Origin: the human T2T-CHM13v2.0 reference genome, Homo sapiens
Length of the DNA stretch: 64,000 bases
Reading direction: 5' to 3'
NCBI GenBank assembly: GCA_009914755.4
Contig: CP068257.2
Span: forward strand, 7,296,001-7,360,000
Shown: piece after piece, positions 4,961-36,200 of the stretch
How positions within the stretch are numbered: position 1 is the stretch's first letter
Layout: the number at the start of each line of letters is the position of its first letter
Notes under the pieces: model-generated
The model's input: the letters and a program-made list of their open reading frames with translations, nothing else
Told to the model about the DNA's origin: nothing
The model's database searches: none
Translations under genes and position numbers: made by a program

Positions 4961-5399
4961 AGAATGGAATGGAATGGAATGGAATGAAATGGAATGGAAT
5001 GGAATGGTATGGAATGGAATGGAAACAACACGAATGGAATGGAACGGAAAGGAATGGAATGGAATGCTGTGGAATGGAATGGAATGGAATGAAATAAACA
5101 CGAATAGAATGGAATGGAATGGAATGGAACGGAATGGAATGGAATGGAATGGAATTGAATGGAATGAAATGGAAAGGAACGGAATGGAATTAACCGAGGG
5201 GAACGGAATGGAATGGAAAGGAATCAATCCGAGTGGAATGAAATGGAATGTAATGCAATGGAATGGAGCAGAATCAACCTGACTCGAATGCAATGGAATG
5301 GAATGGATTGGAGTGGAATGGAACGGAAGGTAATGGAATGGAATGGAATGGAATGGAATGGAATGGAATGGAATGGAATCCAACGGATTCAACTGGAAT

Positions 5400-10900: not shown

Positions 10901-11805
10901 AACCCGAGTGGAATGAAATGGAATAGAATGCTGTGGAATGGAATGGAATGGATAGGAATCAACCCGAGTGGAATGAAATGGAATGTAATGCAATGGAATG
11001 GAGCGGAATCAACCTGAGTCAAAGGCAATGGAATGGAATGGAATGGAGTGGAATGGAATGGAATGGAATGGAATGGAAATTAATGGAATGGAATGGAACG
11101 GAATGGAATCCAATGGAATCAACTGGAATGGAATAGCACAGAATGGAATGGAATGGAATGGAATCACTCCGGGTGGAATGGAATGGAATGTATGACGTGG
11201 AATGGAATGGAATGGAGTGGAATGGAATGGAATGGAATGCAGTGGAAATTAAAGGAACGGAATCAACCCGAATGGAATGGAACGGAATGGAATGGAAAGG
11301 AAAGGAATGGAATGGAATGGAATGGAATGGAATGGAATGGAATCAACCTGAATAGGATGGAATGGAATGGAATGGAATGGAATACAATGGAATGCTATGG
11401 AATAAACCCGAGTGTAATGGAAATGCATGGAATGGAATGGAATGGAATGGAATGGAATGGAATGGAATCAACCCAAGTGCAATGGAATGGAATGGAATGC
11501 AACGGAATCAACCCGAGTGGAATGGAATGGACAGGAATGGAATAGAATGGAATGGGATGGAATGGAATGCAACGGAATGGAAAGAATGGTACGGAATGGA
11601 ACGGAATGGAATAGAATGAACACGAATGGAATGGAATGGAAAGGAATGGATTGGAATGGAATGGAATGGAATCAACCCGAGTGGAACGGAATGTAATGGA
11701 ATGGAGTGGAATGGAATGGAATGGAATGGAATCAACACGAATGTAATGGAATGGCATGGAATGGAAGGGAATGGAATGGAATGGAATCAACCCTAGTGGA
11801 ATGGA

Positions 11806-14536: not shown

Positions 14537-17500
14537 ATGGCATGGAATGAACCCGACTGGAATGGAATGCAATGGAATGGAATGGAATGGAATGGAATGG
14601 AATGGAATGGAATGGAATGGAATCAACCCGAATGGAATGGAATGGAATGGAATGGAGTGGAATGGAATGGAATTGAATGGAATGGAATAGAATGGAATGG
14701 AAAGGAATCAACCCGAATTGAATGGAATGGAATGGAATGGAATGGAATGGAATGGAATGGAATCGAATGGAATGGAATGGAATCAACCCGAGTGGAATGG
14801 AATGGAATGGAATGGAATGGAATCAACCTGAATGGAATGGAATGGAATGGAATGGAAAGGAATGGAATGGAATGGAATGGAATGGAATGGAATAGAATGG
14901 AATCAACAAGAATGGGATGGAATAGAATGGAATGGAATGGAATGGAAAGGAATCCTATTGAATCAACCCGAGTGTAATGGAAAAGAATGGAATGGAATGG
15001 AATGGAACGGAATGCAATGGAATGGAATCAAACCAAGTGCAATGGAATGGAATAGAATGCAACGGAACCAACCCGAGTGGAATGGAATAGAAAGGCATGC
15101 AATGGAATGGAATGGAAAGCAGTGGAATGGAATCAACCCGACTGGAATGGAATGGAATGGAAAGGAATGAAGGGAATGGAATGGAATGGGAAGGTATGGA
15201 ATCAACCCGAGTGGAATGGAATGGAATGGAATGGAATGGAATGGAATGGAGTGCAATGGAATGGAATGGAATGGAATGGAGTGGAATGGAATGGAGTGGA
15301 ATGGAATGGAGTGGAATCGAGTGGAATGGAATGGAATGGAGTGGAATGGAAGGCAATGAAATTTTATGGAATGGAATAGAAAGGAGCGGAACAGAATGGA
15401 ATTGAATGGCATGGAATGGACCCGAATGCAATGGAATGGAATGGAATGGAATGGAATGGAATGGAATGGAATCAACCCGAATGGAATGGAATGGAATGGA
15501 ATGGAATGGAATTAAATGGAAAGGAACGGAATGGAATCAACACGAGTGGAATGAAATGGAATGGAATGGAATGGAATGGAATGGAATGGAATGGAATCAA
15601 TCCGAGTGGAATGGAACGGAATGGAATGGAATGCAATGGAATGGAATGGAAAGGAATGGAATGGAGTGGAATGGAAGGCAAGGCAATGGAATGGAATGGA
15701 ATGGAACGGAATGGAATTCAATGGCATGGAATGAACCCGACTGGAATGGAATGCAATGGAATGGAATGGAATGGAATGGAATGGAATGGAATGGAATGGA
15801 ATCAACCCGAATGGAATGGAATGGAATGGAATGGAGTGGAATGGAATGGAATTGAATGGAATGGAATGGAATGGAAAGGAATCAACCCGAATGGAATAGA
15901 ATGGAATGGAAAGGAATGTAATGGAATGGAATGGAATGGAATGGAATGGAATGGAATGGAATGGAATGGAATCAACCCGAGTGGAATGGAATGGAATGGA
16001 ATTCAATGGAATGGAATGGAATGGGATGGTAAGTAATCAACCTGAGTGGAATATTATCGAATGAAATGGACTGGAATGGGACGGTATGGAATCAACCCGA
16101 GTGGAATATTATCGAATGAAATGGAATGGAACGGAATGGAATGGAATAAAATGTAATGGAATGGAATGGAATCAACCGGAGTGCAATGGAATAGAATGGA
16201 ATAAAATGGAATGGAATGGAATTAAATGGAAAGGAATGGAATGGAATCAACACGAGTGGAATGGAATGGAATGGAATGGAAGGGAATAGAATGGAATGGA
16301 ATGGAATCAACCGGAGTGCAATGGAATGGAATGGAATAAAATGGAATGGAATGGAATTAAATGGAAAGGAACGGAATGGAATCAACACGAGTGGAATGGA
16401 ATGGAATGGAATGGAATGGAATGGAATGGAATGGAATCAATCCGAGTGGAATGGAATGGAATGGAATGCAATGGAATGAAACGGAATATAATGGAATGGA
16501 ATGGAAACATCCCGAGTGGAATGGAATGGTATGGAATGCAATGGAACGGAATGGAACAGAACGGAATGGAATGGAATGGAATAGATTGAATCAGAGAGGA
16601 ATTGAATGGAGAGGAATGGAATGGAATGGAATGCAATGGATTCAACTCTAGTTGAATATCATGGATTGGAAAGGAATGGAATGGAATGGAATGGAAGGGA
16701 ATGGAATGGAATGGAGTGGAATGGAATAGAATCAACTCGAGTGCAATGGAATGTAATGGAATGGAGTGGAATGGAATGGAATGCAATGAAATGGAAAGGA
16801 ATGCTATGGAATCAACCCGAGTGTAATGGAAATGAATGGAATGGAATTGAATAGAAAGGAATGAATGGAATGGAATGGAATGGAATGGAATGGAATGGAA
16901 TGGAATGGTATGGAATCAACCCGAGTGGAATGGAAAGGACTGGAATGGAATAGAATGGAATGGAATGGAATGGAATGCAACGGAATCAACCCGAGTAGAA
17001 TGGAATGGAAAGAAATGGAATGAAATGGAATGGAAAGGAATGGAATGGAATCAACACGAATGGAATGGAATGGAATGGAAAGGAATGAATGCAATGGAAT
17101 GGAATGGAATGGAATGGTAGGGAATCAACCCGAGTGGAATGGAATGGAATGGAATGGAATTGAATGGAATGGAATCCAGCCGAATGGGATGGAATGCAAT
17201 GGAATGGAATGGAATAGAATCAACCCGAATGGAATGGAACGGAATGGAATGAAAAGGAATGGAATGGAAAGGAATGGAATGGAATAGAATGGAATAAACC
17301 AGAATGGAATGGAATGGAATGGATTGGAATGGAATGGAATGGAATGGAATGCTATGGAATCAACAGGAGTGTAATGGAAATGAATGGAATGGAAAGGAAT
17401 GGAATGGAATGGAATAAACCCAAGTGCAATGGAATGGAATAGAATGCAATGGAATCAACCCAAGTGGAATGGAATAGAAATGCATGCAATGGAATGGAAT

Positions 17501-20500
17501 GGAAAGCAAAGGAATGGAATCAACCCGACTGGAATGGAATGGAATGGAAAGGAATGAAGGGAATGGAATGGAATGGAATGGAAAGGTATGGAATCAAGTC
17601 GAGTGGAATGGAATGGAATGGAATGGAATGGAATGGAATGGAGTGGAATGGAAGGCAAGGCAATGGAATGGAATGGAATGGAATGGAACGGAACGGAATG
17701 GAATTGAATGGCATGGAATGAACCCGACTGGAATGGAATGCAATGGAATGGAATGGAATGGAATGGAATGGAATGGAATGGAATGGAATGGAATAGAATC
17801 AAATCGAATGGAATGGAATGGAATGGAGTGGAATGGAATGGAATTGAATGGAATGGAATGGAATGGAAAGGAATCAACCTGGATGGAATGGAATGGAATG
17901 GAATGGAATGGAAAGGAATCAACCCGAGTGGAATGGAATGGAATGGAATTCAATGGAATGAAATGGAATGGGATGGTATGGAATCAACCCGAGTGGAATA
18001 TTATCGAATGAAATGGAATGGAATGGGATGGTATGGAATCAACCCGAGTGGAATATTATCGAATTAAATGGAATGGAACGGAATGGAATGGAATAAAATG
18101 CAATGGAATGGAATGGAATCAACCAGAGTGGAATGGAATATAATGGAATGGAATGGAATTAAATCGAGAGGAACAGAATGGAATCAACACGAGTGGAATG
18201 GAATGGAATGGAATGGAATGGAATCAACCCGAGTGGAATGGAATGGAATGGAATGCAATGGAATGAAGCGGAATATAATGCAATGGAATGGAAACATCCC
18301 GAGTGGAATGGAATGGTATGGAATGCAACGGAACGGAATGGAACAGAACGGAATGGAATGGAACGGAATAGATTGAATCAGAAAGGAATTGAATGCAGAG
18401 GAATGGATTGGAATGGAATGCAATGGATTCAACCCTAGTTGAATGTCATGGATTGGAAAGGAATGGAATGGAACGGAATGGAATGGAATGGAGTGGAATG
18501 GAATGGAACGGAGTGGAATGAAATGGTGTGGAATCAACACGAATGGAAAGGAACGAAATGGAATGGAATGGAATGGAATGGAATGGAATGGAATGGAAAC
18601 AACACGAATAGAATGGAACGGAATAGAATGGAATGCTGTGGAATGGAATGGAATGGAAAGGAATCAACCCGAGTGGAATGAAATGGAATGTAATGCAATG
18701 GAATGGAGCGGAATCAACCTGAGTCAAATGCAATGGAATGGAATGGAATGGAGTGGAATGGAATGGAATGGAATGGAATGGAGTGGAATGGAATGGAATG
18801 GAATGGAATGGAATGGAATGGAATGGAACGGAATGGAATCCAATGGAATCAACTGGAATGGAATAGCACAGAATGGAATGGAATGGAATGGAATCAATCC
18901 GGGTGGAATGGAATGGAATGTATGGAGTGGAATGGAATGGAATGGAGTGGAATGGAATGGAATGGAATGCAGCGGAATTTAATGGAACGGAATCAACCCG
19001 AATGGAATGGAATGGAATGGAGTGGAAAGGAATGGAATGGAATGGAATGGAATGGAATGGAATGGAATGGAATGGAATCAACCTGAATAGGATGGAATGG
19101 AATGGAATGGAATGGAATGGAATACAATGGAATGCTATGGAATAAACCCGAGTGTAATGGAAATGCATGGAATGGAATGGAATGGAATGAAATGGAATGG
19201 AATGGAATGGAATCAACCCAAGTGCAATGGAATGGAATGGAATGCAATGGTATCAACCCGAGTGGAATGGAATGGAAAGGAATGAAATGAAATGGAATGG
19301 AAAGGAATGGAATGGAATCAACCCGAATGGAATGGAATGGAATGGAATGGAAAGTAAAGAATGGAATGGAATGGAATGGATTGGAATGGAATGGTATGGA
19401 ATCAACCCGAGTGGAATGGAATGGACAGGAATGGAATAGAATGGAATGGGATGGAATGGAATGCAATGGAATGGAAAGGAATGGTACGGAATGGAACGGA
19501 ATGGAATAGAATGAACACGAATGGAATGGAATGGAAAGGAATGGATTGGAATGGAATGGAATGGAATCAACCCGAGTGGAACGGAATGTAATGAAATGGA
19601 GTGGAATGGAAAGGAATGGAATGGAATGGAATGAACACGAATGGAATGGAATGGAATGGAATGGAATGGAATGGAATGGAATGGTATGGAATCAACCCGA
19701 GTGGAATGGAATGGACAGGAATGGAATAGAATGGAATGGGATGGAATGGAATGCAATGGAATGGAATGGAATAGAAAGGAATGGTACGGAATGGAACGGA
19801 ATGGAATAGAATGAACACGAATGGAATGGAATGGAAAGGAATGGATTGGAATGGAATGGAATGGAATCAACCCGAGTGGAACGGAATGTAATGGAATGGA
19901 GTGGAATGGAATGGAATGGAATGGAATGGAATGGAATGGAATCAACACGAATGGAATGGAATGGCATGGAATGGAAGGGAATGGAATGAAATGGAATCAA
20001 CCCTAGTGGAATGGAATGGAATGGAGTTTAATGGAATGGAATAGAATAGATTGGTATGGAATCAACCCGAGAGGAATGGTATGGAATGGAATGCAATGGA
20101 ATGGAATGGAATGCAACAAAATGGAATGGAATGGAATGGTATCAACCCGTGTGGAAGGGAATGGAATGGAATGGAATCAACCGGAGTGGAATGGAATGGA
20201 ATGGAGTGGAATGGAATGGAATGCAATGAAATGGAAAGGAACGGAATTTAATCACCCCGAGTGGAATGGAATAGAATGGAATGGAAAGGAATGGAATCAA
20301 CCCGAGTGGAATGGAATGGAATGGAATGGAATGGAATGCAATGGAATCAACCAGAGTGGAAAGGAATAGAATGGAATGGATTATAATGCAATGGAATGGA
20401 ATCAATCCTGGTGGAATGGAACGGAATGGCATGGAGTGGAATGGAACGGAATGGAATGGAATGGAATGGAATGGAATGGAATGGAATGGAAAGGAATCAA

Positions 20501-23500
20501 CCCGAAAGGAATGGAATGGAATGAAATGGAAAGGAATGGAATGCAATGGATTGGAATGGAATGAAATGGATTCAACCCGAATGGAATGGAATGGAATGGA
20601 ATGGAATGGAATGTTATATAATCAACACGAGTGGAATGAAATGAATGGAAAGAAATGGAATGGAATGCAATGGAATGGAATGGAATGGAATGGAATGGAA
20701 TCAACCCGAATGGAATTGAATGGAAAGGAATGGAATGGAATGGATTGGAATGGAATGGAATGGAATGGAATGGAATGGAGTGGAATGGAATGGAATGGAA
20801 TCATCCCGAGTGGAATGGAATGGTATGGAATGTAATGGAATGGAATGGAACAGAACGGAAAGGAATGGAATGGAATAGATTGAATCTGAGAGGAATTGAC
20901 TGGAGTGGAATGGATGGAAATGGAATGCAAGGGATTCAACCCAGTTGAATGTCATGGATTGGAAAGGAGTGGAATGGAATGGAATGGAAAGGTGTGGAAT
21001 GGAATGGAATGGAATCAACACGAATGGAATGGAACGGAATGGAATGGAATGGAATGGAATGGAATGGAATGGAAACAACACGAATGGAATGGAACGGAAC
21101 GGAATGCAATGGAATGCTGTGGAATGCAATGAAATAAACACGAATAGAATTGACCGGAATGGAACGGAATGGAATGGAATGGAATGGAATGCAGTGGAAT
21201 GGCATGAAATGGAAAGGAACGGAATGGAATTAACCCGAGTGGAATGGAATGGAATGGAAAGGAATCAACCCGAGTGGAATGAAATGGAATGTAATGCAAT
21301 GGAATGGAGCAGAATCAATCTGAGTCTAATGCAATGGAATGGAAGGGAATGGAGTGGAATGGAATGGAATGGAATGGAATGGAATGGAATGGAATGGAAC
21401 GGAATAGAATCCAATGGAATCAACTGGGATGGAATAGCATAGAATGGAATGGAATGGAATGAAATCAATCCGGGTAGAATGGAATGGAATGTATGGAGTG
21501 GAATGGAATGGAATGGAGTGGAATGGAATGGAATGGTATGGAATCAACCCGAGTGGAATGGAATTGAATGGAATTCAATGGAATGAAACGGAATATAATG
21601 GAATGGATTGGAAACATCCCGAATGGAATGGAATGGTATGGAATGCAATGGAAAAGAATGGAAAAGAACGGAATGCAATGGAACGGAATAAATTGAATCA
21701 GAGAGGAATTCAATGGAGAGGAATGGACTGCAATGGAATGCAATGGATTCAAACCTAGTTGAATATTATGGATTGGAAAGGAATGGAATGGAATGCAGTG
21801 GAATGGAATGGAGTGGAATCAACACGAATGGAATGGAACGGAATGGAATGGAATGGAATGGAATGGAATGGAATGGAATGGAACGGAATGGAATGGAAAA
21901 AACACGAATAGAATGGAACGGAATGGAATGGAATGCTGTGGAATGGAATGGAATGGAATGAAATAAACACGAATAGAATGGAATGGAATGGAATGCAATG
22001 GAATGGAATGGAATGGAATGGAGTGAAAGGAAAGGAACGGAATGCAATTAACCTGAGTGGAATTGAATGGAATGGAAAGGAATGAACCCGAGTGGAATGA
22101 AATGTAATGTAATGCAATGGAATGGAGCGGAATCAACCTGAGTGGAATGGAATGGAATGGAATGGAATGGAATGGAATGCAATGGAATGGAATGGAATGC
22201 AATGGAATGGAATGCAATGGAATGGAATCAACCCGAATGGAATGGAACGGAATGGAATGGAAAGGAATGGAATGGAATGGAATGGAATGGAATGGAATGG
22301 AATGGAATTGAATGGAATGGAATCATCCCGAATGGAATGGAATGGTATGGAATGCAATGGAATGGAATGGAACAGAACAGAAAGGAATGGAATGGAATAG
22401 ATTGAATCCGAGAGGAATTGACTGGAGTTGAATGGATTGGAATGGAATGCAAGGGATTCAACCCAGTTGAATGTCATGGATTGGAAAGACTGGAATGAAA
22501 TGGAATGGAAAGGAGTGGAATGGAATGGAATGAAATCAACACGAATGGAATGGAACGTAAAGGAATGGGATGGAATGGAATGGAATGGAATGGCAACAAC
22601 ACGAATGGAATGGAAAGGAACGGAATGGAATGGAATGCTGTGGAATGGAATGGAATGGAATGGAATGGAATGGAATGGAATAGAATCAAATCGAATGGAA
22701 TGGAATGGAATGGAATGGAGTGGAATGGAATGGAATTGAATGGAATGGAATGGAATGGAAAGGAATCAACCTGGATGGAATGGAATGGAATGGAATGGAA
22801 TGGAAAGGAATCAACCCGAGTGGAATGGAATGGAATGGAATTCAATGGAATGAAATGGAATGGGATGGTATGGAATCAACCCGAGTGGAATATTATCGAA
22901 TGAAATGGAATGGAATGGGATGGTATGGAATCAACCCGAGTGGAATATTATCGAATTAAATGGAATGGAACGGAATGGAATGGAATAAAATGCAATGGAA
23001 TGGAATGGAATCAACCAGAGTGGAATGGAATATAATGGAATGGAATGGAATTAAATCGAGAGGAACAGAATGGAATCAACACGAGTGGAATGGAATGGAA
23101 TGGAATGGAATGGAATCAACCCGAGTGGAATGGAATGGAATGGAATGCAATGGAATGAAGCGGAATATAATGCAATGGAATGGAAACATCCCGAGTGGAA
23201 TGGAATGGTATGGAATGCAACGGAACGGAATGGAACAGAACGGAATGGAATGGAACGGAATAGATTGAATCAGAAAGGAATTGAATGCAGAGGAATGGAT
23301 TGGAATGGAATGCAATGGATTCAACCCTAGTTGAATGTCATGGATTGGAAAGGAATGGAATGGAACGGAATGGAATGGAATGGAGTGGAATGGAATGGAA
23401 TGGAGTGGAATGAAATGGTGTGGAATCAACACGAATGGAAAGGAAAGAAATGGAATGGAATGGAATGGAATGGAATGGAATGGAATGGAAACAACACGAA

Positions 23501-23869
23501 TAGAATGGAACGGAATGGAATGGAATGCTGTGGAATGGAATGGAATGGAAAGGAATCAACCCGAGTGGAATGAAATGGAATGTAATGCAATGGAATGGAG
23601 CGGAATCAACCTGAGTCAAATGCAATGGAATGGAATGGAATGGAGTGGAATGGAATGGAATGGAATGGAATGGAGTGGAATGGAATGGAATGGAATGGAA
23701 TGGAATGGAATGGAATGGAATGGAACGGAATGGAATCCAATGGAATCAACTGGAATGGAATAGCACAGAATGGAATGGAATGGAATGGAATCAATCCGGG
23801 TGGAATGGAATGGAATGTATGGAGTGGAATGGAATGGAATGGAGTGGAATGGAATGGAATGGAATGCAG
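14537..23869. repeat. ~9.3 kb super-repeat, copy 1 (type II body + type I module + PQRS head)
   Basis: Collinear with 23870-33200 at an offset of 9372 shrinking to 9297. Anchors 14892/24264, 15077/24449, 16086/25433, 17449/26781, 18068/27390, 20016/29333, 22117/31414, 22960/32267 and 23770/33082 all agree. Sampled stretches of 60-150 bp are identical or differ by 1 base. Confidence 0.72.
18068..22960. repeat. HSat3 higher-order module 'type I', copy 1 (4892 bp), sub-block order P-Q-R-S-T-U-V-A-W-X-Y-Z
   Basis: Anchor peptides at fixed spacing: P MEWNGMEWNKMQWNGMESTRVEWNIMEWNGIKSRG at 18068, Q MNVMDWKGMEWNG at 18439, R MERNQPESNAMEWNG at 18703, S MEWNGMESIRVEWNGMYGVEWNG at 18873, A MEWSLMEWNRIDWYGIN at 20016, W MNVMDWKGVEWNGMERCG at 20945, X MEWNGMKSIRVEWNGMYGVEWNG...WYGINPSGMELNG at 21444, Y MERNGLQWNAMDSNLVE at 21713, Z MEWSGINLSGMEWNG at 22117, and the next P at 22960. 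Confidence 0.75.
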
Positions 23870-26800
23870 CGGAATTTAATGGAACGGAATCAACCCGAAT
23901 GGAATGGAACGGAATGGAGTGGAATGGAATGGAATGGAATGGAATGGAATGGAATGGAATGGAATGGAATGGAATGGAATGGAATCAACCCGAATGGAAT
24001 CGAATGGAATGGAATGGAGTGGAATGGAATGGAATTGAATGGAATGGAATAGAATGGAATGGAAAGGAATCAACCCGAATTGAATGGAATGGAATGGAAT
24101 GGAATGGAATGGAATGGAATGGAATCGAATGGAATGGAATGGAATCAACCCGAGTGGAATGGAATGGAATGGAATGGAATGGAATCAACCTGAATGGAAT
24201 GGAATGGAATGGAATGGAAAGGAATGGAATGGAATGGAATGGAATGGAATGGAATGGAATGGAATAGAATGGAATCAACAAGAATGGGATGGAATAGAAT
24301 GGAATGGAATGGAATGGAAAGGAATCCTATTGAATCAACCCGAGTGTAATGGAAAAGAATGGAATGGAATGGAATGGAACGGAATGCAATGGAATGGAAT
24401 CAAACCAAGTGCAATGGAATGGAATAGAATGCAACGGAACCAACCCGAGTGGAATGGAATAGAAAGGCATGCAATGGAATGGAATGGAAAGCAGTGGAAT
24501 GGAATCAACCCGACTGGAATGGAGTGGAATGGAAAGGAATGAAGGGAATGGAATGGAATGGGAAGGTATGGAATCAACCCGAGTGGAATGGAATGGAATG
24601 GAATGGAATGGAATGGAATGGAGTGCAATGGAATGGAATGGAATGGAATGGAGTGGAATGGAATGGAGTGGAATGGAATGGAGTGGAATCGAGTGGAATG
24701 GAATGGAATGGAGTGGAATGGAAGGCAATGAAATTTTATGGAATGGAATAGAAAGGAGCGGAACAGAATGGAATTGAATGGCATGGAATGGACCCGAATG
24801 CAATGGAATGGAATGGAATGGAATGGAATGGAATGGAATGGAATCAACCCGAATGGAATGGAATGGAATGGAATGGAATGGAATGGAATGGAATTAAATG
24901 GAAAGGAACGGAATGGAATCAACAAGAGTGGAATGGAATGGAATGTAATGGAATGGAATGGAATGGAATGGAATCAATCCGAGTGGAATGGAACGGAATG
25001 GAATGGAATGCAATGGAATGGAATGGAAAGGAATGGAATGGAGTGGAATGGAAGGCAAGGCAATGGAATGGAATGGAATGGAACGGAATGGAATTCAATG
25101 GCATGGAATGAACCCGACTGGAATGGAATGCAATGGAATGGAATGGAATGGAAAGGAATGGAATGGAATCAACCCGAATGGAATGGAATGGAATGGAATG
25201 GAGTGGAATGGAATGGAATTGAATGGAATGGAATGGAATGGAGAGGAATCAACCCGAATGGAATAGAATGGAATGGAATGGAATGGAATGGAATGGAATG
25301 GAATGGAATGGAATGGAATCAACCCGAGTGGAATGGAATGGAATGGAATTCAATGGAATGGAATGGAATGGGATGGTAAGGAATCAACCTGAGTGGAATA
25401 TTATCGAATGAAATGGATTGGAATGGGACGGTATGGAATCAACCCGAGTGGAATATTATCGAATGAAATGGAATGGAACGGAATGGAATGGAATAAAATG
25501 TAATGGAATGGAATGGAATCAACTGGAGTGCAATGGAATAGAATGGAATAAAATGGAATGGAATGGAATTAAATGGAAAGGAATGGAATGGAATCAACAC
25601 GAGTGGAATGGAATGGAATGGAATGGAAGGGAATAGAATGGAATGGAATGGAATCAACCGGAGTGCAATGGAATGGAATGGAATAAAATGGAATGGAATG
25701 GAATTAAATGGAAAGGAACGGAATGGAATCAACACGAGTGGAATGGAATGGAATGGAATGGAATGGAATGGAATGGAATGGAATCAATCCGAGTGGAATG
25801 GAATGGAATGGAATGCAATGGAATGAAACGGAATATAATGGAATGGAATGGAAACATCCCGAGTGGAATGGAATGGTATGGAATGCAATGGAACGGAATG
25901 GAACAGAACGGAATGGAATGGAATGGAATAGATTGAATCAGAGAGGAATTGAATGGAGAGGAATGGAATGGAATGGAATGCAATGGATTCAACTCTAGTT
26001 GAATATCATGGATTGGAAAGGAATGGAATGGAATGGAATGGAATGGAATGGAATGGAATGGAGTGGAATGGAATAGAATCAACTCGAGTGCAATGGAATG
26101 TAATGGAATGGAGTGGAATGGAATGGAATGCAATGAAATGGAAAGGAATGCTATGGAATCAACCCGAGTGTAATGGAAATGAATGGAATGGAATTGAATA
26201 GAAAGGAATGAATGGAATGGAATGGAATGGAATGGAATGGTATGGAATCAACCCGAGTGGAATGGAAAGGACTGGAATGGAATAGAATGGAATGGAATGG
26301 AATGGAATGCAACGGAATCAACCCGAGTAGAATGGAATGGAAAGAAATGGAATGAAATGGAATGGAAAGGAATGGAATGGAATCAACACGAATGGAATGG
26401 AATGGAATGGAAAGGAATGAATGCAATGGAATGGAATGGAATGGAATGGTAGGGAATCAACCCGAGTGGAATGGAATGGAATGGAATGGAATGGAATGGA
26501 ATGGAATGGAATCCAGCCGAATGGGATGGAATGCAATGGAATGGAATGGAATAGAATCAACCCGAATGGAATGGAACGGAATGGAATGAAAAGGAATGGA
26601 ATGGAAAGGAATGGAATGGAATAGAATGGAATAAACCAGAATGGAATGGAATGGAATGGATTGGAATGGAATGGAATGGAATGGAATGCTATGGAATCAA
26701 CAGGAGTGTAATGGAAATGAATGGAATGGAATGGAATGGAATGGAATAAACCCAAGTGCAATGGAATGGAATAGAATGCAATGGAATCAACCCAAGTGGA

Positions 26801-27390
26801 ATGGAATAGAAATGCATGCAATGGAATGGAATGGAAAGCAAAGGAATGGAATCAACCCGACTGGAATGGAATGGAATGGAAAGGAATGAAGGGAATGGAA
26901 TGGAATGGTATGGAAAGGTATGGAATCAAGTCGAGTGGAATGGAATGGAATGGAATGGAATGGAATGGAATGGAATGGAGTGGAATGGAAGGCAAGGCAA
27001 TGGAATGGAATGGAATGGAATGGAACGGAACGGAATGGAATTGAATGGCATGGAATGAACCCGACTGGAATGGAATGCAATGGAATGGAATGGAATGGAA
27101 TGGAATGGAATGGAATAGAATCAAATCGAATGGAATGGAATGGAATGGAGTGGAATGGAATGGAATTGAATGGAATGGAATGGAATGGAAAGGAATCAAC
27201 CTGGATGGAATGGAATGGAATGGAATGGAATGGAAAGGAATCAACCCGAGTGGAATGGAATGGAATGGAATTCAATGGAATGAAATGGAATGGGATGGTA
27301 TGGAATCAACCCGAGTGGAATATTATCGAATGAAATGGAATGGAATGGGATGGTATGGAATCAACCCGAGTGGAATATTATCGAATTAAA
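22960..27390. repeat. Hybrid unit (4430 bp): type I head P-Q-R-S (22960 to ~23900) joined to a type II body (~23900-27390)
   Basis: P 22960, Q 23331, R 23595 and S 23770 match type I. From ~23985 the sequence follows the type II order seen at 14537-18068: 24264 matches 14892, 24449 matches 15077, 25433 matches 16086, 26781 matches 17449, at offsets of 9372 down to 9332. The junction falls inside a pure (GGAAT)n run (MEWNGMEWNGMEWNG...) around 23900-23990. Confidence 0.65.
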
Positions 27391-30300
27391 TGGAATGGAA
27401 CGGAATGGAATGGAATAAAATGCAATGGAATGGAATGGAATCAACCAGAGTGGAATGGAATATAATGGAATGGAATGGAATTAAATCGAGAGGAACAGAA
27501 TGGAATCAACACGAGTGGAATGGAATGGAATGGAATGGAATGGAATCAACCCGAGTGGAATGGAATGGAATGGAATGCAATGGAATGAAGCGGAATATAA
27601 TGCAATGGAATGGAAACATCCCGAGTGGAATGGAATGGTATGGAATGCAACGGAACGGAATGGAACAGAACGGAATGGAATGGAACGGAATAGATTGAAT
27701 CAGAAAGGAATTGAATGCAGAGGAATGGATTGGAATGGAATGCAATGGATTCAACCCTAGTTGAATGTCATGGATTGGAAAGGAATGGAATGGAACGGAA
27801 TGGAATGGAATGGAGTGGAATGGAATGGAATGGAGTGGAATGAAATGGTGTGGAATCAATACGAATGGAAAGGAAAGAAATGGAATGGAATGGAATGGAA
27901 TGGAATGGAATGGAATGGAAACAACACGAATAGAATGGAACGGAATGGAATGGAATGCTGTGAAATGGAATGGAATGGAAAGGAATCAACCCGAGTGGAA
28001 TGAAATGGAATGTAATGCAATGGAATGGAGCAGAATCAACCTGAGTCAAATGCAATGGAATGGAATGGAATGGAGTGGAATGGAATGGAATGGAATGGAA
28101 TGGAGTGGAATGGAATGGAATGGAATGGAATGGAATGGAATGGAATGGAATGGAACGGAATGGAATCCAATGGAATCAACTGGAATGGAATAGCACAGAA
28201 TGGAATGGAATGGAATGGAATCAATCCGGGTGGAATGGAATGGAATGTATGGAGTGGAATGGAATGGAATGGAGTGGAATGGAATGGAATGGAATGCAGC
28301 GGAATTTAATGGAACGGAATCAACCCGAATGGAATGGAACGGAATGGAGTGGAAAGGAATGGAATGGAATGGAATGGAATGGAATGGAATCAACCTGAAT
28401 AGGATGGAATGGAATGGAATGGAATGGAATGGAATACAATGGAATGCTATGGAATAAACCCGAGTGTAATGGAAATGCATGGAATGGAATGGAATGGAAT
28501 GGAATGGAATGGAATGGAATCAACCCAAGTGCAATGGAATGGAATGGAATGCAATGGTATCAACCCGAGTGGAATGGAATGGAAAGGAATGAAATGAAAT
28601 GGAATGGAAAGGAATGGAATGGAATCAACCCGAATGGAATGGAATGGAATGGAATGGAAAGTAAAGAATGGAATGGAATGGAATGGATTGGAATGGAATG
28701 GTATGGAATCAACCCGAGTGGAATGGAATGGACAGGAATGGAATAGAATGGAATGGGATGGAATGGAATGCAATGGAATGGAAAGGAATGGTACGGAATG
28801 GAACGGAATGGAATAGAATGAACACGAATGGAATGGAATGGAAAGGAATGGATTGGAATGGAATGGAATGGAATCAACCCGAGTGGAACGGAATGTAATG
28901 AAATGGAGTGGAATGGAAAGGAATGGAATGGAATGGAATGAACACGAATGGAATGGAATGGAATGGAATGGAATGGAATGGAATGGTATGGAATCAACCC
29001 GAGTGGAATGGAATGGACAGGAATGGAATAGAATGGAATGGGATGGAATGGAATGCAATGGAATGGAATGGAATAGAAAGGAATGGTACGGAATGGAACG
29101 GAATGGAATAGAATGAACACGAATGGAATGGAATGGAAAGGAATGGATTGGAATGGAATGGAATGGAATCAACCCGAGTGGAACGGAATGTAATGGAATG
29201 GAGTGGAATGGAATGGAATGGAATGGAATGGAATGGAATGGAATGGAATGGAATGGAATCAACACGAATGGAATGGAATGGCATGGAATGGAAGGGAATG
29301 GAATGAAATGGAATCAACCCTAGTGGAATGGAATGGAATGGAGTTTAATGGAATGGAATAGAATAGATTGGTATGGAATCAACCCGAGAGGAATGGTATG
29401 GAATGGAATGCAATGGAATGGAATGGAATGCAACAAAATGGAATGGAATGGAATGGTATCAACCCGTGTGGAAGGGAATGGAATGGAATGGAATCAACCG
29501 GAGTGGAATGGAATGGAATGGAGTGGAATGGAATGGAATGCAATGAAATGGAAAGGAACGGAATTTAATCACCCCGAGTGGAATGGAATAGAATGGAATG
29601 GAAAGGAATGGAATCAACCCGAGTGGAATGGAATGGAATGGAATGGAATGGAATGCAATGGAATCAACCAGAGTGGAAAGGAATAGAATGGAATGGATTA
29701 TAATGCAATGGAATGGAATCAATCCTGGTGGAATGGAACGGAATGGCATGGAGTGGAATGGAACGGAATGGAATGGAATGGAATGGAATGGAATGGAATG
29801 GAAAGGAATCAACCCGAAAGGAATGGAATGGAATGAAATGGAAAGGAATGGAATGCAATGGATTGGAATGGAATGAAATGGATTCAAACCGAATGGAATG
29901 GAATGGAATGGAATGGAATGTTATATAATCAACACGAGTGGAATGAAATGAATGGAAAGAAATGGAATGGAATGCAATGGAATGGAATGGAATGGAATCA
30001 ACCCGAATGGAATTGAATGGAAAGGAATGGAATGGAATGGATTGGAATGGAATGGAATGGAATGGAATGGAATGGAGTGGAATGGAATGGAATGGAATCA
30101 TCCCGAGTGGAATGGAATGGTATGGAATGCAATGGAATGGAATGGAACAGAATGGAAAGGAATGGAATGGAATAGATTGAATCTGAGAGGAATTGACTGG
30201 AGTGGAATGGATGGAAATGGAATGCAAGGGATTCAACCCAGTTGAATGTCATGGATTGGAAAGGAGTGGAATGGAATGGAATGGAAAGGAGTGGAATGGA

Positions 30301-33200
30301 ATGGAATGGAATCAACACGAATGGAATGGAACGGAATGGAATGGAATGGAATGGAATGGAATGGAATGGAATGGAAACAACACGAATGGAATGGAACGGA
30401 ACGGAATGCAATGGAATGCTGTGGAATGCAATGAAATAAACACGAATAGAATGGACCGGAATGGAACGGAATGGAATGGAATGGAATGGAATGCAGTGGA
30501 ATGGCATGAAATGGAAAGGAACGGAATGGAATTAACCCGAGTGGAACGGAATGGAATGGAAAGGAATCAACCCGAGTGGAATGAAATGGAATGTAATGCA
30601 ATGGAATGGAGCAGAATCAATCTGAGTCTAATGCAATGGAATGGAAGGGAATGGAGTGGAATGGAATGGAATGGAATGGAATGGAATGGAATGGAATGGA
30701 ACGGAATAGAATCCAATGGAATCAACTGGGATGGAATAGCATAGAATGGAATGGAATGGAATGAAATCAATCCGGGTAGAATGGAATGGAATGTATGGAG
30801 TGGAATGGAATGGAATGGAGTGGAATGGAATGGAATGGTATGGAATCAACCCGAGTGGAATGGAATTGAATGGAATTCAATGGAATGAAACGGAATATAA
30901 TGGAATGGATTGGAAACATCCCGAATGGAATGGAATGGTATGGAATGCAATGGAACAGAATGGAAAAGAACGGAATGCAATGGAACGGAATAAATTGAAT
31001 CAGAGAGGAATTCAATGGAGAGGAATGGACTGCAATGGAATGCAATGGATTCAAACCTAGTTGAATGTTATAGATTGGAAAGGAATGGAATGGAATGCAG
31101 TGGAATGGAATGGAGTGGAATCAACACGAATGGAATGGAACGGAATGGAATGGAATGGAATGGAATGGAATGGAATGGAACGGAATGGAATGGAAAAAAC
31201 ACGAATAGAATGGAACGGAATGGAATGGAATGCTGTGGAATGGAATGGAATGGAATGAAATAAACACGAATAGAATGGAATGGAATGGAATGCAATGGAA
31301 TGGAATGGAATGGAATGGAGTGAAAGGAAAGGAACGGAATGCAATTAACCTGAGTGGAATTGAATGGAATGGAAAGGAATGAACCCGAGTGGAATGAAAT
31401 GTAATGTAATGCAATGGAATGGAGCGGAATCAACCTGAGTGGAATGGAATGGAATGGAATGGAATGGAATGGAATGGAATGGAATGCAATGGAATGGAAT
31501 GGAATGCAATGGAATGGAATGCAATGGAATGGAATCAACCCGAATGGAATGGAACGGAATGGAATGGAAAGGAATGGAATGGAATGGAATGGAATGGAAT
31601 GGAATGGAATTGAATGGAATGGAATCATCCCGAGTGGAATGGAATGGTATGGAATGCAATGGAATGGAATGGAACAGAACAGAAAGGAATGGAATGGAAT
31701 AGATTGAATCCGAGAGGAATTGACTGGAGTTGAATGGATTGGAATGGAATGCAAGGGATTCAACCCAGTTGAATGTCATGGATTGGAAAGAGTGGAATGA
31801 AATGGAATGGAAAGGAGTGGAATGGAATGGAATGAAATCAACACGAATGGAATGGAACGTAAAGGAATGGAATGGAATGGAATGGAATGGAATGGAATGG
31901 CAACAACACGAATGGAATGGAAAGGAACGGAATGGAATGGAATGCTGTGGAATGGAATGGAATGGAATGGAATGGAATGGAATAGAATCAAATCGAATGG
32001 AATGGAATGGAATGGAATGGAATGGAGTGGAATGGAATGGAATTGAATGGAATGGAATGGAATGGAAAGGAATCAACCTGGATGGAATGGAATGGAATGG
32101 AATGGAATGGAAAGGAATCAACCCGAGTGGAAGGGAATGGAATGGAATTCAATGGAATGAAATGGAATGGGATGGTATGGAATCAACCCGAGTGGAATAT
32201 TATCGAATGAAATGGAATGGAATGGGATGGTATGGAATCAACCCGAGTGGAATATTATCGAATTAAATGGAATGGAACGGAATGGAATGGAATAAAATGC
32301 AATGGAATGGAATGGAATCAACCAGAGTGGAATGGAATATAATGGAATGGAATGGAATTAAATCGAGAGGAACAGAATGGAATCAACACGAGTGGAATGG
32401 AATGGAATGGAATGGAATGGAATCAACCCGAGTGGAATGGAATGGAATGGAATGCAATGGAATGAAGCGGAATATAATGCAATGGAATGGAAACATCCCG
32501 AGTGGAATGGAATGGTATGGAATGCAACGGAACGGAATGGAACAGAACGGAATGGAATGGAACGGAATAGATTGAATCAGAAAGGAATTGAATGCAGAGG
32601 AATGGATTGGAATGGAATGCAATGGATTCAACCCTAGTTGAATGTCATGGATTGGAAAGGAATGGAATGGAACGGAATGGAATGGAATGGAGTGGAATGG
32701 AATGGAATGGAGTGGAATGAAATGGTGTGGAATCAACACGAATGGAAAGGAACGAAATGGAATGGAATGGAATGGAATGGAATGGAATGGAATGGAATGG
32801 AATGGAAACAACACGAATAGAATGGAACGGAATGGAATGGAATGCTGTGGAATGGAATGGAATGGAAAGGAATCAACCCGAGTGGAATGAAATGGAATGT
32901 AATGCAATGGAATGGAGCGGAATCAACCTGAGTCAAATGCAATGGAATGGAATGGAATGGAGTGGAATGGAATGGAATGGAATGGAATGGAGTGGAATGG
33001 AATGGAATGGAATGGAATGGAATGGAATGGAATGGAACGGAATGGAATCCAATGGAATCAACTGGAATGGAATAGCACAGAATGGAATGGAATGGAATGG
33101 AATCAATCCGGGTGGAATGGAATGGAATGTATGGAGTGGAATGGAATGGAATGGAGTGGAATGGAATGGAATGGAATGCAGCGGAATTTAATGGAACGGA
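23870..33200. repeat. ~9.3 kb super-repeat, copy 2
   Basis: See copy 1. Collinearity ends after the S block (23770 vs 33082). Downstream, copy 1 continues into type II (23985+), whereas copy 2 continues into the type I T-U-V-A blocks (33306+). Confidence 0.72.
27390..32267. repeat. HSat3 type I module, copy 2 (4877 bp)
   Basis: The same anchors in the same order: P 27390, Q 27761, R 28025, S 28200, A 29333, W 30242, X 30746, Y 31015, Z 31414, next P 32267. Offsets to copy 1 are 9322 (P), 9317 (A), 9297 (W), 9302 (X) and 9297 (Z). Nucleotide check: gaattaaatggaatggaacggaatggaatggaataaaatgcaatgg occurs at 18061 and at 27383. Confidence 0.78.
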
Positions 33201-36200
33201 ATCAAGCCGAATGGAATGGAACGGAATGGAGTGGAAAGGAATGGAATGGAATGGAATGGAATGGAATGGAATGGAATGGAATGGAATCAACCTGAATAGG
33301 ATGGAATGGAATGGAATGGAATGGAATGGAATACAATGGAATGCTATGGAATAAACCCGAGTGTAATGGAAATGCATGGAATGGAATGGAATGGAATGGA
33401 ATGGAATGGAATCAACCCAAGTGCAATGGAATGGAATGGAATGCAATGGTATCAACCCGAGTGGAATGGAATGGAAAGGAATGAAATGAAATGGAATGGA
33501 AAGGAATGGAATGGAATCAACCCGAATGGAATGGAATGGAATGGATTGGAAAGTAAAGAATGGAATGGAATGGAATGGATTGGAATGGAATGGTATGGAA
33601 TCAACCCGAGTGGAATGGAATGGACAGGAATGGAATAGAATGGAATGGGATGGAATGGAATGCAATGGAATGGAAAGGAATGGTACGGAATGGAACGGAA
33701 TGGAATAGAATGAACACGAATGGAATGGAATGGAAAGGAATGGATTGGAATGGAATGGAATGGAATCAACCCGAGTGGAACGGAATGTAATGAAATGGAG
33801 TGGAATGGAAAGGAATGGAATGGAATGGAATGAACACGAATGGAATGGAATGGAATGCAATGGAATGGAATGGAATGGAATGGAATGGAATGGTATGGAA
33901 TCAACCCGAGTGGAATGGAATGGACAGGAATGGAATAGAATGGAATGGGATGGAATGGAATGCAATGGAATGGAATGGAATAGAAAGGAATGGTACGGAA
34001 TGGAACGGAATGGAATAGAATGAACACGAATGGAATGGAATGGAAAGGAATGGATTGGAATGGAATGGAATGGAATCAACCCGAGTGGAACGGAATGTAA
34101 TGGAATGGAGTGGAATGGAATGGAATGGAATGGAATGGAATGGAATGGAATGGAATGGAATCAACACGAATGGAATGGAATGGCATGGAATGGAAGGGAA
34201 TGGAATGAAATGGAATCAACCCTAGTGGAATGGAATGGAATGGAGTTTAATGGAATGGAATAGAATAGATTGGTATGGAATCAACCCGAGAGGAATGGTA
34301 TGGAATGGAATGCAATGGAATGGAATGGAATGCAACAAAATGGAATGGAATGGAATGGTATCAACCCGTGTGGAAGGGAATGGAATGGAATGGAATCAAC
34401 CGGAGTGGAATGGAATGGAATGGAGTGGAATGGAATGGAATGCAATGAAATGGAAAGGAACGGAATTTAATCACCCCGAGTGGAATGGAATAGAATGGAA
34501 TGGAAAGGAATGGAATCAACCCGAGTGGAATGGAATGGAATGGAATGGAATGGAATGCAATGGAATCAACCAGAGTGGAAAGGAATAGAATGGAATGGAT
34601 TATAATGCAATGGAATGGAATCAATCCTGGTGGAATGGAACGGAATGGCATGGAGTGGAATGGAACGGAATGGAATGGAATGGAATGGAATGGAATGGAA
34701 TGGAATGGAAAGGAATCAACCCGAAAGGAATGGAATGGAATGAAATGGAAAGGAATGGAATGCAATGGATTGGAATGGAATGAAATGGATTCAACCCGAA
34801 TGGAATGGAATGGAATGGAATGGAATGTTATATAATCAACACGAGTGGAATGAAATGAATGGAAAGAAATGGAATGGAATGCAATGGAATGGAATGGAAT
34901 GGAATGGAATGGAATGGAATGGAATCAACCCGAATGGAATTGAATGGAAAGGAATGGAATGGAATGGATTGGAATGGAATGGAATGGAATGGAATGGAAT
35001 GGAGTGGAATGGAATGGAATGGAATCATCCCGAGTGGAATGGAATGGTATGGAATGCAATGGAATGGAATGGAACAGAATGGAAAGGAATGGAATGGAAT
35101 AGATTGAATCTGAGAGGAATTGACTGGAGTGGAATGGATGGAAATGGAATGCAAGGGATTCAACCCAGTTGAATGTCATGGATTGGAAAGGAGTGGAATG
35201 GAATGGAATGGAAAGGAGTGGAATGGAATGGAATGGAATCAACACGAATGGAATGGAACGGAATGGAATGGAATGGAATGGAATGGAATGGAATGGAAAC
35301 AACACGAATGGAATGGAACGGAACGGAATGCAATGGAATGCTGTGGAATGCAATGAAATAAACACGAATAGAATGGACCGGAATGGAACGGAATGGAATG
35401 GAATGGAATGGAATGCAGTGGAATGGCATGAAATGGAAAGGAACGGAATGGAATTAACCCAAGTGGAACGGAATGGAATGGAAAGGAATCAACCCGAGTG
35501 GAATGAAATGGAATGGAATGCAATGGAATGGAGCAGAATCAATCTGAGTCTAATGCAATGGAATGGAAGGGAATGGAGTGGAATGGAATGGAATGGAATG
35601 GAATGGAATGGAATGGAATGGAACGGAATAGAATCCAATGGAATCAACTGGGATGGAATAGCATAGAATGGAATGGAATGGAATGAAATCAATCCGGGTA
35701 GAATGGAATGGAATGTATGGAGTGGAATGGAATGGAATGGAGTGGAATGGAATGGAATGGTATGGAATCAACCCGAGTGGAATGGAATTGAATGGAATTC
35801 AATGGAATGAAACGGAATATAATGGAATGGATTGGAAACATCCCGAATGGAATGGAATGGTATGGAATGCAATGGAACAGAATGGAAAAGAACGGAATGC
35901 AATGGAACGGAATAGATTGAATCAGAGAGGAATTCAATGGAGAGGAATGGACTGCAATGGAATGCAATGGATTCAAACCTAGTTGAATGTTATGGATTGG
36001 AAAGGAATGGAATGGAATGCAGTGGAATGGAATGGAGTGGAATCAACACGAATGGAATGGAACGGAATGGAATGGAATGGAATGGAATGGAATGGAATGG
36101 AATGGAACGGAATGGAATGGAAAAAACAAGAATAGAATGGAAAGGAATGGAATGGAATGCTGTGGAATGGAATGGAATGGAATGAAATAAACACGAATAG

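What the first reader, a model, noticed from the sequence alone, without database searches (positions are those of the whole stretch)
14537..33200. Two tandem copies of a ~9.3 kb HSat3 super-repeat
Every landmark between 14.5 and 23.9 kb recurs in the same order 9297-9372 bp downstream (for example 18061 to 27383, 20016 to 29333, 22117 to 31414, 23770 to 33082). The compared stretches are identical or differ by 1 base. A sequence-defined repeat unit this long is a true higher-order repeat, and it indicates recent homogenisation.
Basis: seen in the sequence. Interest (0 to 1): 0.55.

Follow-up and report, generated by a model that had tools for sequence, protein, structure and literature searches.

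The report
Nested tandem duplications inside HSat3 satellite
Two adjacent, nearly identical 9.3 kb copies really are present in this GGAAT-type (HSat3-like) satellite, but they are a one-off local duplication layered on an equally young 4.9 kb duplication, which is ordinary behaviour for this kind of DNA and not an array-wide higher-order repeat.

Summary
Window 14,575-23,923 and 23,937-33,235 are directly abutting, same-strand copies (9,349 and 9,299 bp). They differ by 31 substitutions in 9,214 aligned columns (99.66%) and about 27 indels, nearly all multiples of 5 bp. Non-homologous controls in the same satellite differ about 17-20 times more.

There are just two copies, and no third in-phase copy on either side. 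The unit is a composite: A (3.2 kb) + B (4.9 kb) + the first 1.27 kb of a second B. In copy 2 that second B continues in full to about 36.87 kb. B2|B3 are as similar as the 9.3 kb pair, so the young block is 14.56-36.87 kb. Older A and B copies lie elsewhere, and other local periods occur (3.6, 6.1, 9.1 kb).

The new junction lies in the longest perfect (GGAAT)n tract of the window (66 bp). Both parental breakpoints lie in 50-53 bp tracts, and the 4.9 kb junction behaves likewise. The best explanation is two successive unequal exchanges (or template switches) within perfect pentamer tracts. This matches the "nested tandem repeats expanding hyper-locally" described for HSat2/3 in the T2T centromere work. 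It is an ordinary finding of low interest. The HSat3 subfamily and chromosome could not be assigned.

The parts
14575..23920 (+). Copy 1 of the ~9.3 kb duplicated segment (A1 + B1 + b). The true start lies somewhere in the shared tract 14,556-14,623.
   Evidence: Global alignment: 99.66% identity to copy 2 over 9,214 columns. Identity drops to background upstream of about 14,560.
23921..33237 (+). Copy 2 of the ~9.3 kb segment (A2 + B2 + first 1.27 kb of B3). The true end lies in the shared tract 33,233-33,287.
   Evidence: Identity drops to background downstream of about 33,240 when compared at the 9.3 kb offset.
23920..23985 (+). Novel junction of the 9.3 kb duplication: a perfect (GGAAT)13 tract. 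It is the longest perfect period-5 tract in the 64 kb window.
   Evidence: sequence left of it matches the distal parent (33.2 kb side) and sequence right of it matches the proximal parent (14.56 kb side); 66 bp, rank 1 of all tracts.
14571..14623 (+). Proximal parental breakpoint tract, (GGAAT)10 and 53 bp long. It sits just after the landmark GGCATGGAATGAACCCGACTGGAATGGAATGCAATGG (14,539-14,575).
33238..33287 (+). Distal parental breakpoint tract, (GGAAT)10 and 50 bp long, 1.27 kb into B3.
14575..17759 (+). Module A1 (3.2 kb).
   Evidence: A1 vs A2 has 10 mismatches in 3,115 columns; blast of A2 against the window.
17760..22655 (+). Module B1 (4.9 kb).
   Evidence: B1 vs B2 has 18 mismatches in 4,831 columns.
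22656..23920 (+). Module b: restart of B (first 1.27 kb), truncated by the 9.3 kb junction.
   Evidence: b vs B3-start 3/1,219 mismatches; b vs B1-start 4/1,219.
23937..27081 (+). Module A2.
27082..31957 (+). Module B2.
31958..36870 (+). Module B3, a full-length tandem copy of B2.
   Evidence: B2 vs B3 has 19 mismatches in 4,827 columns and 14 gap events (6.8 differences/kb).
31948..31983 (+). Junction of the 4.9 kb B|B duplication, in a perfect (GGAAT)7 tract. The same junction is present in copy 1 at 22,641-22,681.
   Evidence: (three-way comparison with the B3-end and A2-end parents).
38823..44506 (+). Older copy of A-tail + B (B4), separated from B3 by about 1.9 kb of sequence (36.9-38.8 kb) that has no close copy elsewhere in the window.
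   Evidence: 11.7 differences/kb to A-tail+B2. B4 carries 25 unique sites and is the outgroup in the site-pattern analysis.
122..2240 (+). Partial older B copy (B0). It is closest to B4, 40.7 kb away.
   Evidence: 21 mismatches in 2,079 columns to 40,805-42,903.
7701..10920 (+). Older copy of module A, called A(-1).
   Evidence: 30.7 differences/kb to A1.

Best explanation
The interval is a young, hyper-local expansion inside a GGAAT-pentamer (HSat3-type) satellite array. It was produced by two successive out-of-register exchanges.

The ancestral arrangement was ...A-B-(right flank), as still seen in the older copy A-tail+B4.

Step 1: a 4.9 kb tandem duplication produced A-B-B. Its crossover lay in a perfect (GGAAT)n tract at the start of B.

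Step 2: an exchange joined the perfect (GGAAT)n tract at the start of A to the one 1.27 kb into the second B. That duplicated the intervening 9.3 kb and gave A1-B1-b | A2-B2-B3.

The exchange was either unequal sister-chromatid or homologue crossing-over, or a replication template switch. The sequence cannot tell these apart.

Afterwards the copies accumulated about 0.34% substitutions, plus pentamer slippage indels concentrated in long perfect tracts.

Shown: the copy boundaries, the composite structure, the hybrid junctions, the tract context and the indel spectrum. Inferred: the order of the two steps (from structure only), the type of exchange, and the age. No sequence-specific function is implied. 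The 9.3 kb unit is a by-product of array turnover.
For: (1) The copies abut, lie on the same strand and are 99.66% identical, with sharp edges.
(2) The junction is a hybrid. It matches the distal parent up to GGAGT at 23,920 and the proximal parent from CAACCCGAAT at 23,986. The switch falls inside a perfect (GGAAT)13 tract.
(3) That 66 bp tract is the longest in the window, and the parental breakpoints lie in 53 and 50 bp tracts. Tracts of at least 45 bp cover only 5.7% of the window.
(4) The B|B junction is also a hybrid inside a perfect tract. It is present in both 9.3 kb copies (22,641-22,681 and 31,948-31,983), so it predates the 9.3 kb event.
(5) The proximal breakpoints of both duplications follow the same 37 nt landmark.
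(6) Differences/kb: 9.3 kb pair 6.6; B2|B3 6.8; older layers 11.7-32.7; non-homologous controls 111-131.
(7) Site patterns put B4 as outgroup and B1/B2/B3 as a near star: 10, 6 and 13 private sites, with 1 site shared by B1+B2 and 1 by B2+B3.
(8) 87% of indels lie in perfect period-5 tracts of at least 25 bp, against 18% of random positions. Sizes are 5, 10, 15 or 20 bp.
Against: Substitutions do not resolve the order of the two duplications, because B1, B2 and B3 form a near star. B1-B3 (27 mismatches) and B2-B3 (19) are not equal, as a strict clock on the simple model would predict. Six of the 31 mismatches cluster in 205 bp (scan P about 0.013), so something beyond uniform point mutation has acted, for example patchy conversion or a local hotspot. 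Only 64 kb is visible, so further 9.3 kb copies elsewhere in the array cannot be excluded. The junction was not found in any independent dataset, so assembly correctness is untested.
Confidence: 0.8

Rival explanations
1. The 9.3 kb unit is a genuine array-wide higher-order or nested repeat, and the window happens to show two well-preserved copies of many.
For: The two copies are far more alike than the background. An older pair, at a similar offset of 9.1-9.18 kb, lies just upstream: 2,104-6,413 vs 11,202-15,594.
Against: There is no in-phase third copy on either side. Flanks at the 9.3 kb offset are at background level, and global alignment of the neighbouring periods finds only off-phase modules. 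The window carries several other local periods: 4.9, 3.6, 6.1 and 3.0 kb. The older 9.1 kb pair has a different phase and content, and it runs across the left edge of copy 1. Searches of the paper library found no HSat3 unit of 9.3 or 4.9 kb.
Confidence: 0.1
2. Homogenisation without duplication: a long gene-conversion tract overwrote one pre-existing, diverged 9.3 kb unit with the sequence of its neighbour.
For: The mismatch cluster at 18,509-18,710 / 27,831-28,032 hints at some patchy exchange between paralogues.
Against: Conversion between old homologous units would leave flanks with 'old-layer' similarity at the same offset (about 12-33 differences/kb). The flanks here are at non-homologous background. 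The junction at 23.92 kb joins B-interior sequence to A-start sequence. That is a novel adjacency, not a converted boundary. A 9.3 kb conversion tract would be unusually long (own knowledge).
Confidence: 0.05
3. Assembly artefact: a false tandem duplication created when a long-read assembler mis-resolved the satellite.
For: Satellites are error-prone to assemble. The junction-spanning ORF and the junction DNA pattern were not found in any public collection searched.
Against: The copies differ by 31 substitutions and about 27 indels spread evenly over 9.3 kb. This level matches the neighbouring 4.9 kb duplication. False duplications are normally near-identical. The hybrid junction has the anatomy expected of a biological unequal exchange. 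The parental-boundary ORFs were also absent from the collections, so the absence of the junction is uninformative. Independent short contigs do reproduce the B module with 0-1 mismatch.
Confidence: 0.05

Closest known systems
Nested tandem repeats (NTRs) of HSat2/HSat3 arrays (T2T-CHM13 centromere study, 10.1101/2021.07.12.452052)
   Same: A multi-kb unit built from diverged (CATTC/GGAAT)n. It has no discrete monomers, is repeated head to tail, has a periodicity that differs from place to place within the array, and looks like a hyper-local expansion (one search compared).
   Different: Only two copies of the 9.3 kb unit and about 3.3 young copies of the 4.9 kb module are visible. Whether either period dominates any larger stretch of the array is unknown. 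No published unit of these lengths was found.
DYZ1 / HSat3A6, the ~3.6 kb HSat3 nested tandem repeat of Yq12 (10.1101/2022.12.01.518724; PMC4022460)
   Same: A pentamer-derived HSat3 multi-kb unit whose evolution is attributed to unequal exchange.
   Different: DYZ1 is a regular unit repeated thousands of times. The most common HSat3A6-specific 24-mer is absent from the window, even at up to 1 mismatch. The ~3.6 kb local period at 57.6-64 kb is therefore not shown to be DYZ1.
Alpha-satellite higher-order repeats
   Same: Units are much more similar to each other than their internal sub-repeats are to one another. They are thought to be generated and spread by unequal exchange.
   Different: HORs consist of an integer number of ~171 bp monomers and form long homogeneous arrays. 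Here the only regular period is 5 bp, internal landmarks are irregularly spaced (1.18 and 1.99 kb), and there are two copies.
Tandem segmental duplication by non-allelic homologous recombination / unequal sister-chromatid exchange (classical Smith-type model of satellite evolution; own knowledge)
   Same: Direct abutting copies, a hybrid junction, and breakpoints inside stretches of perfect shared sequence (50-66 bp).
   Different: The shared homology is simple-repeat sequence, not low-copy repeats. Replication slippage or template switching would give the same product and cannot be excluded.

Membership tests
Human satellite 3 (HSat3, classical satellite III) | Built on the pentamer (CATTC)n / (GGAAT)n | tested here: met
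   TRF finds one array of period 5 with 4,004 copies over 14,000-33,993, consensus GGAAT. GGAAT occurs about 100-118 times per kb across all 64 kb, on one strand only.
Human satellite 3 (HSat3, classical satellite III) | Pentamer runs interspersed with the decamer CAACCCGA(G/A)T (complement A(C/T)TCGGGTTG). This definition is from own knowledge of the classical literature. | tested here: met
   CAACCCGA occurs 243 times and CAACCCGAGT 155 times in 64 kb.
Human satellite 3 (HSat3, classical satellite III) | Not HSat2 (no ATCATCGAATGGAATCGAATGGAATC-type units or HSat2-specific 24-mers) | tested here: met
   There are 0 hits for the three HSat2 flagship 24-mers and 0 for HSat2-type motifs.
Human satellite 3 (HSat3, classical satellite III) | Assignable to one of the 11 HSat3 subfamilies by subfamily-specific 24-mers (Altemose 2014, PMC4022460) | tested here: inconclusive
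   None of the 11 most common HSat3 subfamily-specific 24-mers occurs exactly. At up to 1 mismatch the counts are 3A4 x5, 3B5 x3, 3B1 x2. The full 24-mer list held in the library is truncated within the HSat2 rows.
Human satellite 3 (HSat3, classical satellite III) | Human (or ape) pericentromeric or acrocentric chromosomal location | not testable with these tools
   No eukaryotic genome collection is available. Short public contigs matching module B carry no organism information usable here.
Higher-order repeat (HOR) in the alpha-satellite sense | Unit made of a discrete number of similar-length monomers | tested here: not met
   Only period 5 is detected up to 500 bp. Internal landmarks are irregularly spaced. 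The T2T authors distinguish NTRs from HORs on exactly this criterion.
Higher-order repeat (HOR) in the alpha-satellite sense | Many (at least 3) in-phase tandem copies forming a homogeneous array | tested here: not met
   There are two copies. The neighbouring periods on both sides are not in-phase copies.
Higher-order repeat (HOR) in the alpha-satellite sense | Inter-unit identity far above intra-unit identity | tested here: met
   6.6 differences/kb between units, against 131 per kb for A1 vs B1 within the unit.
Nested tandem repeat (NTR) of HSat2/3 | Multi-kb unit derived from a diverged simple repeat and repeated head to tail | tested here: met
   9.3 kb x2 abutting copies and 4.9 kb x2 abutting copies (B2|B3).
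Nested tandem repeat (NTR) of HSat2/3 | Periodicity may vary locally within one array | tested here: met
   Different dominant offsets occur in different parts of the window: 9.1/3.0 kb (0-14 kb), 9.3/4.9 kb (14.5-37 kb), 6.1 kb (48-57 kb) and 3.6 kb (57-64 kb).
Tandem duplication by unequal homologous exchange | Junction = distal end of the segment joined to its proximal start, with shared homology at both parental breakpoints | tested here: met
   Three-way comparisons for both junctions. The perfect tracts are 50-66 bp (9.3 kb event) and 22-41 bp (4.9 kb event).

The most novel reading that the evidence does not exclude
Long perfect (GGAAT)n tracts may be the preferred, reusable breakpoints that define where new multi-kb units are born in HSat3. 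Both young duplications here break in such tracts, and two of the breaks lie directly after the same 37 nt landmark. If so, the 14.5-36.9 kb block could be an actively expanding, possibly copy-number-polymorphic seed of a new nested repeat.
Probability: 0.25. Interest if true: 0.4.

Novelty: already known. Interest (0 to 1): 0.15.

Why it matters
It matters little by itself. It is a clean, base-resolved example of how classical satellite arrays turn over: stepwise local duplications whose breakpoints sit in the longest perfect simple-repeat tracts, followed by pentamer slippage. Such examples help calibrate models of satellite evolution. The junction k-mers could also serve as markers for structural polymorphism in an otherwise hard-to-map array. 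Nothing suggests a new element, gene or mechanism.

Tried and rejected
(1) Subfamily assignment with the Altemose 2014 flagship 24-mers gave 0 exact hits. The full list in the library is cut off within the HSat2 rows, so the subfamily and chromosome stay unassigned.

(2) The repeat finder was swamped by background. Every 300-mer matches about 2,000 in-register positions at 70-83% ungapped. It only showed that there are no inverted repeats.

(3) TRF sees only the 5 bp period.

(4) A first blast run used unsupported gap costs and returned nothing. It was rerun with valid costs.

(5) Exact-protein look-ups used artefactual satellite ORFs. A B-module ORF found two short public contigs. The junction and parental-boundary ORFs were not on record, and the cluster look-ups found nothing.

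(6) The junction DNA pattern was absent from metagenome contigs and genome contigs. A B-module landmark found one 2.5 kb metagenome contig that matches only over its last ~340 bp, which says nothing about long-range structure.

(7) Gene conversion as the cause of the mismatch cluster was considered. The six sites split 3:3 between the two copies, so no simple donor or one-sided tract fits.

(8) DYZ1 identity for the 3.6 kb period at the window end was considered and rejected on the HSat3A6 flagship 24-mer.

(9) A literature search for 9.3 kb or 4.9 kb HSat3 units found nothing relevant.
Full report
**What the window is.** All 64 kb is one-stranded GGAAT-pentamer satellite. GGAAT occurs about 100-118 times per kb, ATTCC is essentially absent, and GC is 0.40-0.42. 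TRF reports a single period-5 array over 14-34 kb and no longer period up to 500 bp. The classical satellite-3 decamer is abundant (CAACCCGA x243, CAACCCGAGT x155), and HSat2-type motifs are absent. No non-satellite insert is present: the largest gap between successive GGAA is 54 bp. The family label 'HSat3' is therefore supported by composition. The subfamily and chromosome are not assignable here. None of the 14 most common subfamily-specific 24-mers of Altemose et al. 2014 (PMC4022460, Table 1) occurs exactly, and the stored full list stops within the HSat2 rows.

**Checking the observation.** A 32-mer offset histogram has its largest peak at 9.3 kb. The matching k-mers form one continuous diagonal, 14,658-23,893 to 23,960-33,210. 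A global alignment that includes 1.5 kb of flank on each side shows 99-100% identity per 250 bp inside the interval. Identity falls abruptly to 88-93% of aligned columns, with many gaps, outside it.

Between 14,575-23,923 and 23,937-33,235 there are 9,214 aligned columns and 31 mismatches (99.66%; 16 transitions, 15 transversions; 10 touch a CpG). There are 30 gap runs totalling 220 bases, nearly all of 5, 10, 15 or 20 bp. The offset wanders between 9,297 and 9,382 because of these indels. On the same aligner the pair differs at 6.6 sites/kb, whereas non-homologous pairs from this window differ at 111-131 sites/kb.

**What is really there.** The window is a mosaic, and the 9.3 kb unit is composite.
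- It consists of module A (3.2 kb; A1 14,575-17,759, A2 23,937-27,081).
- Then comes module B (4.9 kb; B1 17,760-22,655, B2 27,082-31,957).
- Then comes a restart of B. In copy 1 this restart ('b', 22,656-23,920) is cut off after 1.27 kb by the junction with copy 2.
- In copy 2 the restart continues as a full third copy, B3 (31,958 to about 36,870).

B2 and B3 differ at 6.8 sites/kb, the same as the 9.3 kb pair.

Older layers surround it:

| Pair | Differences/kb |
|---|---|
| A-tail+B4 (38,823-44,506) vs A-tail+B2 | 11.7 |
| B0 (122-2,240) vs B4, 40.7 kb away | 13.5 |
| A(-1) (7,701-10,920) vs A1 | 30.7 |
| 2,104-6,413 vs 11,202-15,594, offset 9.1 kb | 32.7 |

The last pair runs across the left edge of copy 1. 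Other local periods occur further right: 6.1 kb (48.3-56.5 kb) and about 3.6 kb (57.6-64.0 kb). One period upstream and one period downstream of the pair there is no in-phase copy. Alignment finds only off-phase older modules.

**Junction anatomy.** The sequence at the copy 1|copy 2 boundary matches the distal parental site (about 33.2 kb, inside B3) up to '...AACGGAATGGAGT' at 23,920. It matches the proximal parental site (about 14.56 kb, start of A1) from 'CAACCCGAAT' at 23,986. The switch lies in a perfect (GGAAT)13 tract. At 66 bp it is the longest perfect period-5 tract in the window. The two parental sites carry 53 bp and 50 bp tracts, and tracts of at least 45 bp cover only 5.7% of the window.

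The older B|B junction has the same anatomy: a hybrid of the B-end and A-end|B-start parents, switching within a perfect (GGAAT)7 tract. It is present in both 9.3 kb copies (22,641-22,681 and 31,948-31,983), with no substitution differences around it. The proximal breakpoints of both events lie directly after the same 37 nt landmark, GGCATGGAATGAACCCGACTGGAATGGAATGCAATGG. That landmark recurs with 0-1 mismatch at 7,805, 14,539, 15,723, 17,710, 25,100, 27,047 and 39,403.

**Order and age.**
- Site patterns in a four-way alignment of B1-B4 were scored after excluding the boundary columns 17,785-17,805. They give B4 25 private sites, B3 13, B1 10 and B2 6. One site is shared by B1+B2 and one by B2+B3.
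- B4 is therefore the outgroup, and B1/B2/B3 form a near star. Substitutions do not order the two duplications.
- The order 4.9 kb first, 9.3 kb second is inferred from structure, because the B|B junction was copied by the 9.3 kb event.
- The divergence of 0.34% would correspond to roughly 3 million years at d/2mu, using a human-like germline rate of about 0.5e-9 per bp per year (own knowledge). It would be less if satellite rates are higher or if conversion from other paralogues added differences. This is inference only, and the species is not established.
- 'Recent' is right relative to the array, but not necessarily on a population timescale.

**Post-duplication change.** 87% of the indels lie in perfect period-5 tracts of at least 25 bp (median 44.5 bp), compared with 18% of random positions (median 9 bp). 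This is the signature of replication slippage. Six of the 31 mismatches cluster in 205 bp (18,509-18,710 / 27,831-28,032; scan-statistic P about 0.013). Relative to copy b, three are private to B1 and three to B2, so no simple conversion tract explains them. This remains unexplained.

**Outside evidence.** A 117-aa artefactual ORF that is identical in B1, B2 and B3 was found exactly on two short public contigs: NCBI GCA_030447215.1 (741 bp) and ENA ERZ28587898 (581 bp). Both match the B copies with 0-1 mismatch. The B module is therefore not peculiar to this assembly. ORFs spanning the new junction and both parental boundaries are not on record. A pattern diagnostic for the junction, which is unique in the window, is absent from the metagenome and prokaryotic-genome collections. 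A 2.5 kb metagenome contig found with a B landmark matches only over its last ~340 bp. These negatives are uninformative about the junction.

**Comparison with what is known.** The T2T centromere study states that HSat2/3 can be composed of multi-kb units. It names them nested tandem repeats, to distinguish them from HORs made of discrete monomers. [quoted passage not shown] The present block is an instance of exactly this behaviour. It fails two defining features of an HOR (discrete monomers; many in-phase copies) and meets those of an NTR and of a tandem duplication by unequal exchange. No published HSat3 unit of 9.3 or 4.9 kb was found in the library.

**Verdict.** The best explanation (confidence 0.8) is two nested, similarly young tandem duplications (4.9 kb, then 9.3 kb), created by out-of-register exchange or template switching inside long perfect (GGAAT)n tracts and followed by slippage and point mutation. 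The rivals are an array-wide 9.3 kb repeat (0.1), long-tract conversion (0.05) and assembly artefact (0.05). The kind of feature is already known, so interest is low (0.15). The only mildly novel reading is that long perfect pentamer tracts act as reusable birth sites of new units and that this block is an active, possibly polymorphic expansion seed (probability about 0.25).

Noticed in passing
window 57,592-64,000: A separate local ~3.6 kb period: 57,592-60,418 vs 61,190-64,000 has 15 mismatches in 2,791 columns plus 9 gap events, and it runs off the window end. Inside it lies a 330-385 bp local repeat (58,593-59,364 and 62,191-62,957). The length recalls DYZ1, but the HSat3A6 flagship 24-mer is absent.
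   Followed up: partly
window 2,104-6,413 vs 11,202-15,594: An older duplicated pair (32.7 differences/kb) at an offset of 9.1-9.18 kb. It runs across the left edge of the young 9.3 kb copy. The similar length but different phase and content is unexplained, and possibly coincidence.
   Followed up: partly
window 122-2,240 vs 40,805-42,903: A partial B copy at the window start is closest to B4, 40.7 kb away (21 mismatches in 2,079 columns), and not to the young B1-B3 (about 92% gapped identity). This hints at an older, longer-range duplication layer.
   Followed up: partly
window 48,322-50,281 vs 54,431-56,505: Another local pair, at a 6.1 kb offset (98.1% substitution identity, 15 gap events). 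50,343-51,940 vs 55,869-57,572 continues it at a 5.5-5.6 kb offset.
   Followed up: no
window 18,509-18,710 and 27,831-28,032: Six of the 31 substitutions between the 9.3 kb copies cluster in 205 bp (scan P about 0.013). Three are private to each copy relative to paralogue b, so there is no simple conversion donor.
   Followed up: yes
window 7,805; 14,539; 15,723; 17,710; 25,100; 27,047; 39,403: A recurrent 37 nt landmark, GGCATGGAATGAACCCGACTGGAATGGAATGCAATGG (0-1 mismatch), followed by a long perfect (GGAAT)n tract. It marks the starts of modules A and B and the proximal breakpoints of both young duplications.
   Followed up: yes
window-wide, e.g. 32,733-34,079 (- strand): The pentamer satellite yields many long artefactual ORFs (up to 448 aa; (GMEWN)n on + and (IPFHS)n on -). 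Gene callers have called such ORFs on public contigs, which made exact-protein look-ups usable as a sequence probe.
   Followed up: yes
L001 (NCBI GCA_030447215.1, 741 bp), L002 (ENA ERZ28587898, 581 bp): Short contigs in unrelated public assemblies reproduce window 29,217-29,957 and its paralogues with 0-1 mismatch. They are presumably host-derived or contaminant satellite DNA in those datasets. The organism of origin was not checked.
   Followed up: partly
window 36,870-38,823: About 1.9 kb between B3 and the older A-tail+B4 has no close copy (32-mer level) elsewhere in the window.
   Followed up: no
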